From: Escherichia coli
Lineage (GTDB): Bacteria > Pseudomonadota > Gammaproteobacteria > Enterobacterales > Enterobacteriaceae
NCBI RefSeq assembly: GCF_045037415.1
Contig: NZ_CP173438.1
Direction: 5' to 3' (one strand)
DNA: 64,000 nucleotides
Position 1 is the stretch's first letter. Every line of letters begins with the position of its first letter. The position numbers and the translations under genes are program-made. Shown one piece after another: positions 45,892 to 47,661 of this stretch. The notes under the pieces are model-generated. The model ran no database searches. It was given only the letters and a program-made list of their open reading frames with translations, and had not been told where the DNA came from.

Positions 45892-47469
45892 ATGACGGAA
45901 AACATTCATAAGCATCGCATCCTCATTCTGGACTTCGGTTCCCAGTATACTCAACTGGTTGCGCGCCGCGTGCGTGAACTGGGGGTTTACTGCGAACTGT
46001 GGGCGTGGGATGTGACAGAAGCACAAATTCGTGACTTCAATCCAAGCGGCATTATTCTTTCCGGCGGCCCGGAAAGTACTACTGAAGAAAACAGCCCGCG
46101 TGCGCCGCAGTATGTCTTTGAAGCAGGCGTACCGGTATTCGGCGTTTGCTATGGTATGCAGACCATGGCGATGCAGTTGGGCGGTCACGTTGAGGCTTCT
46201 AATGAACGTGAATTTGGCTACGCGCAGGTTGAAGTCGTAAACGACAGCGCACTGGTTCGCGGTATCGAAGATGCTCTGACCGCAGATGGTAAACCGCTGC
46301 TGGACGTCTGGATGAGCCACGGCGATAAAGTTACCGCTATCCCGTCCGACTTCGTCACCGTAGCCAGCACCGAAAGCTGCCCGTTTGCCATCATGGCCAA
46401 CGAAGAAAAACGCTTCTATGGCGTACAGTTCCACCCGGAAGTGACTCACACCCGCCAGGGTATGCGCATGCTGGAGCGTTTTGTGCGTGATATCTGCCAG
46501 TGTGAAGCCCTGTGGACGCCAGCGAAAATTATCGACGACGCTGTAGCCCGCATCCGCGAGCAGGTAGGCGACGATAAAGTCATCCTCGGCCTCTCTGGTG
46601 GCGTGGATTCCTCCGTAACCGCAATGCTGTTGCACCGCGCTATCGGTAAAAACCTGACTTGCGTATTCGTCGACAACGGCCTGCTGCGTCTCAACGAAGC
46701 AGAGCAGGTTCTGGATATGTTTGGCGATCACTTTGGTCTGAACATTGTTCACGTACCGGCAGAAGATCGCTTCTTGTCAGCGCTGGCTGGCGAAAACGAT
46801 CCGGAAGCAAAACGTAAAATCATCGGGCGCGTTTTCGTTGAAGTATTCGATGAAGAAGCGCTGAAACTGGAAGACGTGAAGTGGCTGGCGCAGGGCACCA
46901 TCTACCCTGACGTTATCGAATCTGCTGCTTCTGCAACCGGTAAAGCACACGTCATCAAATCTCACCACAACGTGGGTGGGCTGCCGAAAGAGATGAAGAT
47001 GGGCCTGGTTGAACCGCTGAAAGAGCTGTTCAAAGACGAAGTGCGTAAGATTGGTCTGGAGCTGGGCCTGCCGTATGACATGTTGTACCGTCACCCGTTC
47101 CCGGGACCAGGCCTTGGCGTTCGTGTTCTGGGGGAAGTGAAGAAAGAGTATTGTGACCTGCTGCGCCGTGCTGACGCCATCTTCATTGAAGAACTGCGTA
47201 AAGCGGACCTGTACGACAAAGTCAGCCAGGCGTTCACCGTCTTCCTGCCAGTACGTTCCGTTGGCGTAATGGGCGATGGTCGTAAGTATGACTGGGTTGT
47301 CTCTCTGCGTGCTGTCGAAACCATCGACTTTATGACCGCACACTGGGCACATCTGCCGTACGATTTCCTCGGTCGAGTTTCCAACCGCATTATCAATGAA
47401 GTGAATGGTATTTCCCGCGTGGTGTATGACATCAGCGGCAAGCCACCAGCAACTATTGAGTGGGAATGA
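45892..47469 (+). CDS. guaA: GMP synthase (glutamine-hydrolysing)
   Basis: 525 aa, begins [36 protein letters not shown]. Confidence 0.97.
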
Positions 47470-47517
47470 TTAACAGCTAACTCATAGCAACTCATTCCTA
47501 TTCAGATACTAATTTAA

Positions 47518-47549
47518 CCCTCTGTTTTTACAGAGGGTTTTTGTTTTTA
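47518..47549 (+). terminator. rho-independent terminator downstream of guaA
   Basis: hairpin CCCTCTG-TTTTTA-CAGAGGG followed by TTTTTGTTTTT. Confidence 0.75.
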
Positions 47550-47661
47550 TGTATTCATTTCTATTCACTCTACACCATATTTTTCGTCGGTACAGGTGAC
47601 GGTATTACCTTAAAGGTATACTCTCATACCGTCATGAAAATGGTTTCTATACGGGTGAATT

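What the first reader, a model, noticed from the sequence alone, without database searches (positions are those of the whole stretch)
47455..47661. Prophage inserted immediately downstream of guaA
Host synteny breaks after guaA. The guaA terminator (47518-47549) is followed within about 110 bp by a P4-type integrase and then at least 16 kb of phage genes. In K-12 the guaA neighbour is a host gene, as I recall. I also recall that epsilon15-like phages integrate at the 3' end of guaA, which would fit, but I cannot verify this here. The att core should lie around 47.45-47.6 kb, with a direct repeat at the far prophage end outside the window.
Basis: partly seen in the sequence, partly recalled or inferred. 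Interest (0 to 1): 0.5.

Follow-up and report, generated by a model that had tools for sequence, protein, structure and literature searches.

The report
phiV10-like prophage integrated at guaA
This is the left junction of an ordinary, already described kind of E. coli prophage (phiV10/epsilon15 type) sitting at its published attachment site on the last codons of guaA; the only correction is that the "guaA terminator" here was brought in by the phage.

Summary
guaA ends at 47469. The 17-bp sequence ATTGAGTGGGAATGATT (47455-47471: the last four guaA codons, the stop codon and TT) is the attL core. Everything from 47472 to the window end is a phiV10/epsilon15-type (Uetakevirus) prophage. In a genome 99.99% identical to the whole window (E. 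coli A1.S1.18), the same 17-mer recurs exactly 40,000 bp downstream, next to yfgI. BL21 and C600 have guaA directly followed by yfgI, with a single copy of the core. The integrase is 99% identical to phiV10 Int and 87% to epsilon15 Int. The large terminase is 99% and 95% identical. The same 17-bp core has been published as the attP/attB of phiV10, epsilon15 and vB_EcoP_ZX5 (PMC9782041). One correction: the hairpin at 47516-47549 is not E. coli's own guaA terminator. It lies on the phage side of the core. The native terminator is displaced to attR. The phage copy is a homologue of the guaA 3' flank, 81% identical to the unoccupied Citrobacter flank and 59% to E. coli's. It presumably serves as a surrogate terminator between guaBA and int. 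"P4-type" holds only broadly (28% identity). Verdict: already known, low interest.

The parts
45892..47469 (+). guaA (GMP synthase). It is intact because the att core contains its last four codons and the stop codon, so integration does not change the protein.
   Evidence: ORF; RefSeq annotation of the near-identical genome; sequence.
47455..47471 (+). attL core ATTGAGTGGGAATGATT (Ile-Glu-Trp-Glu-stop of guaA plus TT). It is the site of Int-mediated crossover.
   Evidence: Exact copies are found at attL, at attR (40,000 bp apart in L004), at attB in BL21 and at attP in phiV10. The identical published core is given in PMC9782041. Homology to unoccupied genomes ends at 47471.
47472..47549 (+). 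Phage-borne copy of a guaA 3' flank: a 44-nt spacer followed by a rho-independent terminator (hairpin 47516-47539, T-tract to 47549). It replaces the native E. coli guaA 3' flank and terminator.
   Evidence: The segment is identical in phiV10 attP, where it is annotated as a terminator. It is 81% identical to the unoccupied Citrobacter NCU1 guaA flank and 59% to the E. coli flank, and homology stops after the T-tract. Fold z-score is -4.95; terminator scan.
47550..47661 (+). The rest of the attP P' arm, with arm-type Int-binding repeats: GTGACGGTAT at 47596-47605, an inverted near-copy ATACCGTCAT at 47626-47635, and a degenerate copy GTCGGTAC at 47586-47593.
   Evidence: The repeats are conserved in five Uetakevirus attP regions. 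The 10-mer occurs 4 times in the window against 0.09 expected. The same 10-mers are annotated as integrase-binding sites in the epsilon15 record.
47662..48918 (+). Tyrosine integrase (GTG start, 418 aa). The ORF also carries three further exact copies of GTGACGGTAT (47831-47840 +, 47921-47930 +, 48174-48183 -).
   Evidence: Pfam finds Arm-DNA-bind_3, Phage_int_M and Phage_integrase. Identity is 99% to phiV10 Int, 87% to epsilon15 Int and 28% over the full length to P4 Int, with the catalytic R, HxxR, H and Y aligned. Motif copies.
48921..49580 (-). NinI-like Ser/Thr protein phosphatase. This is a mosaic module next to int that phiV10 lacks at this position.
   Evidence: NCBIfam PRK11439 E = 3e-79; PHROG 246 E = 1e-108; not covered by phiV10.
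49577..50227 (-). MT-A70 family DNA adenine methyltransferase.
   Evidence: PHROG 359 E = 1e-120; annotation.
50220..50471 (-). PerC-family transcriptional activator.
   Evidence: PHROG 868 E = 6e-62; annotation.
50629..50877 (-). AlpA-type helix-turn-helix protein, the candidate excisionase (recombination directionality factor).
   Evidence: PHROG 66 'excisionase and transcriptional regulator' E = 2e-16. It is 85% identical to epsilon15 gp33, which is annotated as an excisionase.
50927..52686 (-). RecT recombinase (50927-51868) and a RecE-like PD-(D/E)XK exonuclease (51865-52686).
   Evidence: RefSeq annotation; phage matches.
53291..53875 (-). Helix-turn-helix prophage repressor (homologue of phiV10 gp40), with a divergent cro-like gene at 54030-54260 (+).
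   Evidence: PHROG 8, 12107 and others; synteny with phiV10 and epsilon15.
54627..56224 (+). Replication module: a DnaT-like protein (54627-55442) and a lambda-P-like protein (55439-56224).
   Evidence: Annotation; phage matches.
60411..62557 (+). Terminase small subunit (60411-61085) and large subunit (61082-62557).
   Evidence: PHROG 51 and PHROG 2. TerL is 99% identical to phiV10 and 95% to epsilon15.
63221..63297 (-). Prophage-borne tRNA-Arg (anticodon UCU).
   Evidence: ARAGORN; Rfam tRNA, 73.3 bits.
47472..64000 (.). The part of the prophage inside the window. The element continues about 23.5 kb beyond the window, to attR next to yfgI.
   Evidence: The distance from core to core is 40,000 bp in A1.S1.18. 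A full structural and lysis gene set is annotated there. phiV10 covers 79% of the element at 95.5% identity.

Best explanation
Window 47455-47661 is attL of a roughly 40-kb temperate podophage of the phiV10/epsilon15 group (genus Uetakevirus). It consists of the core plus the P' arm.

**Shown**
- The phage's tyrosine integrase recombined the phage attP core ATTGAGTGGGAATGATT with the identical 17 bp at the very end of guaA.
- Because the core contains the last four codons and the stop codon, guaA stays intact.
- The circular phage genome was linearised between its lysis cassette (Rz) and int. As a result, int now lies 190 bp downstream of guaA on the same strand, and the lysis genes abut yfgI 40 kb away.

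**Inferred**
- Int binds the arm-type repeats GTGACGGTAT in both arms through its N-terminal Arm-DNA-binding domain.
- Int exchanges strands within the core. A candidate 7-bp overlap is GAGTGGG, flanked in attP by the imperfect inverted repeat AATAATT / AATGATT.
- IHF and the AlpA-type protein at 50629-50877 assist integration and excision.

**The terminator**
- Integration displaces E. coli's own guaA 3' flank and terminator to attR (shown).
- Their place is taken by a phage-borne homologue of a guaA 3' flank of the Citrobacter type. Its terminator (47516-47549) presumably now ends the guaBA transcript and shields int from read-through (inferred).
- In the free phage, the same hairpin ends the lysis-cassette transcript (inferred).
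For: - **Core in all four att sites.** The identical 17-mer is found at attL (window), at attR (L004, 40,000 bp downstream, 91 bp from yfgI, the same spacing as in the empty site), at attB (BL21, C600) and at attP (phiV10 26720-26736, between Rz and int).
- **Source genome.** The window is 99.99% identical to A1.S1.18 over all 64 kb.
- **Population.** 5425 of 5426 genomes share guaA up to 47471, and 567 carry the integrase there.
- **Phage identity.** The DNA is 97% identical to vB_EcoP_PAS61, phiv142-3, ZX5 and phiV10. Int and TerL are each 99% identical to phiV10. phiV10 covers 79% of the prophage at 95.5% identity.
- **Integrase domains.**
- **Published core.** The same core was verified by PCR and Sanger sequencing for ZX5 and is cited for phiV10 and epsilon15 (PMC9782041). 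The epsilon15 integrase cluster targets the guaA 3' flank (PMC8138268).
- **Arm repeats.** They are conserved in five phages, enriched at 4 copies against 0.09 expected, and annotated as Int-binding sites in epsilon15.
- **Terminator.** The folds are. The phage-side location follows. Homology to native guaA flanks of unoccupied Citrobacter, Enterobacter and Buttiauxella loci is shown. The host genes downstream of those flanks are confirmed.
Against: - attR is not in the window. It is read from a genome that differs from the window at 4 of 64,000 positions, not from the source genome itself.
- No experiment here shows that this copy can excise or form virions. In A1.S1.18 the Rz-like gene is flagged as frameshifted, in a G-homopolymer, so this is possibly an assembly error.
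- The crossover position, the Int, IHF and Xis binding, and the terminator and insulator role are inferences from sequence and from annotations of relatives.
- No sigma-70-like promoter for int was found in 47300-49100, so how int is expressed is not explained.
Confidence: 0.95

Rival explanations
1. The element is a cryptic, decaying prophage remnant. It is fixed at guaA and can no longer excise or produce particles.
For: In the closest genome, A1.S1.18, RefSeq flags the Rz-like DUF2514 gene and PerC as frameshifted. A partial DUF551 pseudogene is present. No induction data exist for this strain.
Against: Both att cores are intact and identical. Int is full length, 99% identical to phiV10 Int, and its catalytic residues align. 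The element is 40.0 kb, collinear with phiV10 at 39.1 kb, and carries complete packaging, head, tail and lysis modules. The PerC 'frameshift' is absent from the window, where it is a T-run length difference at 50391. The Rz-like frameshift is a single G in a G5/G6 run and is absent in Ecol_AZ146. Very similar phages (PAS61, ZX5, phiv142-3) were isolated as virions.
Confidence: 0.1
2. This is the first reader's implicit reading: the hairpin at 47518-47549 is E. coli's own guaA terminator, and the phage/host boundary (the att core) lies downstream of it, nearer the integrase.
For: The hairpin lies where a guaA terminator is expected. Its stem, CCCTCTGT/ACAGAGGG, is identical to that of the native E. 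coli guaA terminator.
Against: Homology to all unoccupied E. coli genomes ends at 47471, before the hairpin. The 47472-47661 segment, hairpin included, is identical to phiV10 attP DNA from virions. The native flank and terminator, with a 28-nt spacer and a TACT loop, are found intact at attR. No repeat other than the 17-mer links the two prophage ends.
Confidence: 0.02
3. The resemblance between the phage hairpin and guaA terminators is convergence or chance between two unrelated intrinsic terminators, not a captured host flank.
For: Against E. coli's own flank, only the stem, the A-run and the T-run match, and overall identity is 59%. An 8-bp stem match alone is modest evidence, because the two halves of a hairpin are not independent.
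Against: Against unoccupied Citrobacter loci, the similarity covers the entire 68 nt from the stop codon through the hairpin. Identity is 81%, with the same 48-nt spacing, the same loop and a shared GCTA..TAGC element. That is as high as between phages of the genus (76-86%). It ends abruptly after the T-tract. Enterobacter, Buttiauxella and Dryocola flanks form a graded series. The downstream genes at those loci are host genes, and no integrase is present.
Confidence: 0.08

Closest known systems
Escherichia phage phiV10 (Uetakevirus phiV10, NC_007804)
   Same: The attP region from Rz to int is nearly identical, including the core, the terminator and the arm repeats. Int and TerL are each 99% identical. 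phiV10 covers 79% of the prophage at 95.5% identity with the same gene order.
   Different: The differences are mosaic. This prophage has a NinI-like phosphatase next to int in place of a DUF1382 gene. It has separate RecE-like and RecT genes rather than the annotated fusion. It has a different nin-type region with an HNH endonuclease ORF, a different antirepressor region and a different tail-fibre C-terminus. It has no oac O-acetyltransferase, and it carries a tRNA-Arg.
Escherichia phages vB_EcoP_ZX5, vB_EcoP_PAS61 and phiv142-3
   Same: These are the best DNA matches: 65-75% of the 16.5 kb in the window is covered at about 97% identity. For ZX5, integration at the 3' end of guaA through the core attgagtgggaatgatt, 190 bp 5' of int, was shown by PCR and sequencing (PMC9782041). 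That is the same geometry as here, with the core starting at 47455 and int at 47662.
   Different: They differ in mosaic accessory modules. They were characterised as free virions, whereas this copy is known only as a prophage.
Salmonella phage epsilon15 (Uetakevirus epsilon15, NC_004775)
   Same: The att core is the same. The arm-type 10-mer GTGACGGTAT occupies equivalent positions in the P arm, the P' arm and the int ORF. The terminator lies between the core and int. Int is 87%, TerL 95% and the Xis-like protein 85% identical.
   Different: Only 45% of the prophage is covered, at 76% DNA identity. The host is Salmonella. epsilon15 carries serotype-conversion genes that are absent here.
Satellite phage P4 integrase (the 'P4-type' label)
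   Same: The three-part architecture is the same (Arm-DNA-bind_3, central domain, catalytic domain), and the proteins align over the full length with the catalytic residues conserved. In both elements, arm-type repeats extend into the int gene.
   Different: Identity is only 28%. P4 targets the 3' end of a tRNA gene, whereas this enzyme targets the 3' end of a protein-coding gene. The published phylogeny puts the epsilon15 cluster apart from the P4 cluster within the IntSXT subgroup (PMC8138268).

Membership tests
Uetakevirus (phiV10/epsilon15-like temperate podophages) | Genome-wide nucleotide similarity and synteny with type members | tested here: met
   phiV10 covers 79% of the 40-kb prophage at 95.5% identity. 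Gene order matches phiV10 and epsilon15.
Uetakevirus (phiV10/epsilon15-like temperate podophages) | Hallmark proteins (large terminase, integrase) closely related to those of type members | tested here: met
   TerL is 99% and 95% identical and Int is 99% and 87% identical to phiV10 and epsilon15 respectively.
Uetakevirus (phiV10/epsilon15-like temperate podophages) | attP between the Rz spanin gene and int, with core ATTGAGTGGGAATGATT recombining with the 3' end of guaA | tested here: met
   The core is present at attL, attR, attB and attP. The published core is identical (PMC9782041).
Uetakevirus (phiV10/epsilon15-like temperate podophages) | Short-tailed (podovirus) virion; ability to form infectious particles | not testable with these tools
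   Only gene content can be seen: epsilon15-type capsid staple protein, Bbp16-type cement protein and T7 gp14-like core protein are annotated.
Uetakevirus (phiV10/epsilon15-like temperate podophages) | O-antigen-modifying (serotype-conversion or immunity) gene between the tail fibre and the holin. This is typical of phiV10 and epsilon15 but does not define the genus. | tested here: not met
   No gene lies between the tail-fibre and holin genes in A1.S1.18 or Ecol_AZ146. phiV10 has oac there.
P4-like (INT_P4 / Arm-DNA-bind_3) tyrosine integrases | N-terminal Arm-DNA-bind_3 (DUF4102) domain, a central SAM-like domain and a C-terminal Phage_integrase catalytic domain | tested here: met
   Pfam PF13356 (E = 8.5e-20), PF22022 (E = 1.7e-11) and PF00589 (E = 2.5e-19). 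PDB matches to CP4-like integrase arm-binding domains.
P4-like (INT_P4 / Arm-DNA-bind_3) tyrosine integrases | Conserved catalytic residues (Arg, His-x-x-Arg, His, nucleophilic Tyr) | tested here: met
   In the alignment with P4 Int, VRKGE aligns with VRSSE, HDMRR with HGFRT, AHE with SHS, and RAVY with RAAY.
P4-like (INT_P4 / Arm-DNA-bind_3) tyrosine integrases | Membership of the P4 cluster proper: close sequence kinship and a tRNA-gene 3' end as target | tested here: not met
   Identity to P4 Int is only 28%. The target is guaA, not a tRNA gene. The literature places epsilon15-type integrases in a separate guaA-targeting cluster.
Site-specific prophage insertion (Campbell model) | Direct repeat of the core at both ends, a single core at the empty site and in the phage, and gene order permuted relative to the virion genome at attP | tested here: met
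   Shown. int is at one end and the lysis genes are at the other, whereas in phiV10 they are adjacent across attP.

The most novel reading that the evidence does not exclude
The P' arm of this phage group carries a captured guaA 3' flank and terminator of the Citrobacter type. Lysogeny in E. coli therefore swaps the native guaA 3' untranslated region and terminator for a foreign one. That hairpin would do double duty: it ends the lysis transcript in the phage, and it ends guaBA and insulates int in the lysogen. It would also mark the ancestral host, or the ancestral length of attP-attB identity (about 90 bp), of the Uetakevirus integration module.
Probability: 0.6. Interest if true: 0.25.

Novelty: already known. 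Interest (0 to 1): 0.12.

Why it matters
It matters little beyond correct annotation. The finding marks the left boundary (47455-47471) of a prophage of a known type at a known hotspot, which is occupied in about 10% of complete E. coli genomes. This helps when delimiting the accessory genome of this ExPEC-like strain.

The useful correction is that the terminator after guaA in lysogens is phage DNA. Comparisons of guaA 3' ends, terminator catalogues or 3'-UTR analyses across strains should not treat it as the native element. The homology of the P' arm to Citrobacter-type guaA flanks is a small evolutionary footnote on how integration modules that target gene 3' ends carry a replacement for what they displace.

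Tried and rejected
- **Ecol_AZ146 as the source genome.** It gave a 100% match to the junction. It was rejected because it diverges from the window after about 55750. A1.S1.18 matches the whole window.
- **Primary epsilon15 genome paper (PMC2698709).** It is not held. The att-site literature therefore rests on PMC9782041 and PMC8138268, which cite it.
- **Promoter scan of 47300-49100.** No sigma-70-like site was found, so no int promoter is proposed.
- **Rfam on the junction and on 44-64 kb.** Only the tRNA passed. The junction hits are sub-threshold and driven by the terminator. There is no known sRNA or cis-regulatory element in the att region.
- **Citrobacter-type flanks as phage scars.** Considered and rejected. 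No integrase is present, and the genes downstream are host genes: a TorC/NapC-like cytochrome in Citrobacter NCU1, and PdeF-like and Ppx genes in Buttiauxella.
- **A longer att repeat.** Considered and rejected. The flanks differ immediately on both sides of the 17-mer.
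Full report
**What is in the sequence.** guaB (44288-45823) and guaA (45892-47469) are followed by a 192-bp non-coding stretch and then a 418-aa ORF (47662-48918, GTG start) on the same strand. The non-coding stretch holds a strong hairpin with a T-tract at 47516-47549: a 10-bp stem, -16.8 kcal/mol, z = -4.95, with none of 200 shuffles folding as well. The ORF has the Arm-DNA-bind_3, central and Phage_integrase domains of a tyrosine integrase. From 47472 to the window end, the DNA matches phiV10-like podophages (vB_EcoP_PAS61, phiv142-3, ZX5, TL-2011b, phiV10) at 96-98% identity.

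**Where host synteny breaks.** A 1.7-kb query across the junction matched 5425 of 5426 complete E. coli genomes. Most matches stop at query base 172, which is window 47471, two bases after the guaA stop codon. Only 567 genomes (about 10%) continue into an integrase. In BL21 and in the K-12 derivative C600, guaA is followed after 92 bp by the convergent host gene yfgI.

**The att sites.**
- The window is 99.99% identical to E. coli A1.S1.18 (urine isolate, NZ_CP146595.1), with 4 differences in 64 kb. Ecol_AZ146 matches only as far as about 55750.
- In A1.S1.18, the 17-mer ATTGAGTGGGAATGATT is present at the guaA end (window 47455-47471). It is present again exactly 40,000 bp downstream, 91 bp from yfgI, the same spacing as in the empty site.
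- The same 17-mer occurs once in BL21 attB and once in phiV10, between the Rz spanin gene and int.
- The flanks diverge immediately on both sides, so the core is exactly 17 bp. It covers the last four guaA codons (Ile-Glu-Trp-Glu), the stop codon and TT, so GuaA is unchanged.
- This is the classical Campbell arrangement. In phiV10 the lysis cassette and int are neighbours across attP. In the prophage they are at opposite ends.
The second copy lies outside it.

**What the element is.**
- Int is 99% identical to phiV10 Int and 87% to epsilon15 Int.
- TerL is 99% and 95% identical.
- The AlpA-type protein at 50629-50877 is 85% identical to epsilon15 gp33, which is annotated as an excisionase.
- phiV10 covers 79% of the 40-kb element at 95.5% identity. 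The uncovered parts are mosaic modules: a NinI-like phosphatase beside int, part of the nin-type region, the antirepressor region and the tail-fibre C-terminus.
- The closest genome annotates a complete packaging, head, tail and lysis set.

**Literature.**
- PMC9782041 (vB_EcoP_ZX5, 2022) reports the attP and attB core as attgagtgggaatgatt, 190 bp 5' of int and at the 3' end of guaA. It was verified by PCR and Sanger sequencing. The paper states that the same sequence is the attP of phiV10 and epsilon15.
[quoted passage not shown] This cluster is separate from the tRNA-targeting P4 cluster.
- PMC3293862 notes a phiV10-related phage inserted at guaA in an O103:H25 strain.
- The phenomenon is therefore already described, down to the base.

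**Correction: whose terminator?**
It lies to the right of the core, on the phage side. It is identical in phiV10 virion DNA, where it is annotated as a terminator between Rz and int.
- E. coli's own terminator, AAAACCCTCTGTTACTACAGAGGGTTTTTT, lies 28 nt after the stop codon. In the lysogen it sits at attR, next to yfgI.
- The two hairpins share the stem CCCTCTGT/ACAGAGGG, so I scanned one genome per species for guaA-stop, spacer and this stem. Thirteen loci came back.
- Four of the thirteen are occupied by epsilon15-type integrases at 82-99% identity: Citrobacter werkmanii, Pseudocitrobacter faecalis, a Citrobacter MAG and K. pneumoniae ATCC 13883.
- The unoccupied loci show that this hairpin is the native guaA terminator across Enterobacteriaceae.
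- In unoccupied Citrobacter sp. NCU1, the whole 68 nt from the stop codon through the hairpin is 81% identical to the phage P' arm, with the same 48-nt spacer and the same loop. That is as close as the arm is to other phages of the genus (76-86%).
- E. coli's own flank is only 59% identical. Enterobacter, Buttiauxella and Dryocola are intermediate. Homology ends right after the T-tract.
- The genes downstream at the unoccupied loci are host genes.
- The phage therefore carries a homologue of a guaA 3' flank of the Citrobacter type. This is the usual device by which elements that integrate at gene 3' ends replace what they displace (general principle, from established knowledge of prophage insertion sites).
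- It is my inference, not a test, that this hairpin now terminates guaBA and keeps read-through out of int, which is co-oriented 112 bp downstream.

**Mechanistic details of attP.**
- An alignment of the Rz-int intergenic region of this prophage, phiV10, epsilon15, Tyrion and Salmonella phage 65FD shows conserved elements. These are the core, a P-arm block TGACGGTATATAAAACGGTA, a P'-arm block CGGTACAGGTGACGGTATTACC with an inverted ATACCGTCA, and the hairpin.
- The hairpin's stem changes in epsilon15 and Tyrion would leave G-U pairs, by my reading.
- The 10-mer GTGACGGTAT occurs four times in the window against 0.09 expected. All four lie within 47596-48183, and three are inside the int ORF. 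A fifth copy lies in the P arm at attR.
- The epsilon15 record annotates exactly these 10-mers as integrase-binding sites, together with IHF sites around the core.
- P4 likewise has arm repeats running into int.
- In attP the core reads AATAATT-GAGTGGG-AATGATT, an imperfect inverted repeat around 7 bp. This suggests the overlap region. It is a reading of the sequence only.

**'P4-type'.** Compared directly, this Int and P4 Int align over their full lengths at 28% identity (E = 2e-41), with the catalytic Arg, HxxR, His and Tyr conserved. The architecture is shared. The label is correct in the broad (INT_P4-like) sense, but the enzyme belongs to the separate guaA-targeting epsilon15 cluster.

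**Is the prophage alive?** This cannot be settled here. Both att sites, int and the candidate xis gene are intact. The PerC 'frameshift' annotated in A1.S1.18 is a T-run difference that is in frame in the window. The Rz-like frameshift is one G in a G-run and is absent in Ecol_AZ146. I rate a dead remnant at about 0.1.

**Verdict.** The finding is real and correctly interpreted. It describes a known phage type at its published attachment site, so it is already known and of low interest. Two refinements are worth keeping. The exact core is 47455-47471. The hairpin at 47516-47549 is phage-supplied DNA homologous to a Citrobacter-type guaA terminator, not E. coli's own.

Noticed in passing
window 56692-57300 (+): A 202-aa ORF in the prophage nin-type region matches HNH endonuclease families (PHROG 1271, E = 3.7e-23). 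RefSeq leaves it unannotated in both A1.S1.18 and Ecol_AZ146, and it has no phiV10 counterpart.
   Followed up: partly
window 34693-42774 (+) and upstream to about 31.3 kb: A 2693-aa 'adhesion domain-containing protein' lies next to SinI and the intimin-like inverse autotransporter SinH, between der and xseA. This is an ExPEC-type accessory block that is absent from the K-12-type arrangement as I recall it.
   Followed up: no
window 63221-63297 (-): A prophage-borne tRNA-Arg (anticodon UCU) lies between the large terminase and the portal gene. phiV10's annotation lists no tRNA at the equivalent place.
   Followed up: partly
window 48921-49580 (-): A NinI-like Ser/Thr protein phosphatase (NCBIfam PRK11439, E = 3e-79) is inserted directly beside int, where phiV10 has a small DUF1382 gene. 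It looks like a mosaic or moron-like module at the prophage edge.
   Followed up: partly
window 47831-47840, 47921-47930 (+) and 48174-48183 (-): Three exact copies of the arm-type 10-mer GTGACGGTAT lie inside the integrase coding sequence, as in epsilon15. This raises the possibility of Int autoregulation, or of an attP that extends about 700 bp into int.
   Followed up: partly
L004 8018-10669 and 7519-7920 (A1.S1.18, outside the window): The prophage has no O-antigen-modifying gene (phiV10's oac, or the epsilon15 conversion genes) between the tail fibre and the holin. Its tail-fibre C-terminus differs from phiV10's, which suggests a different receptor specificity.
   Followed up: partly
L022 7419-7498 (Serratia nevei): The core-like sequence TTGAGTGGGAATGATT is preceded by DNA that is not guaA and followed by a native-looking terminator. 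This is probably attR of a different guaA-targeting element in Serratia.
   Followed up: no
L016 (K. pneumoniae ATCC 13883), L011, L013, L015: epsilon15-type integrases (82-99% identical) occupy the guaA 3' end in the representative genomes of K. pneumoniae, Citrobacter werkmanii, Pseudocitrobacter faecalis and a Citrobacter MAG. The hotspot is therefore used across Enterobacteriaceae.
   Followed up: partly
window 50391 and L004 6109-6605: Two 'frameshifted' pseudogene calls in A1.S1.18 (PerC, and the Rz-like DUF2514 gene) are single-base differences in homopolymer runs. The window has the in-frame PerC version. These are likely assembly errors rather than decay.
   Followed up: partly
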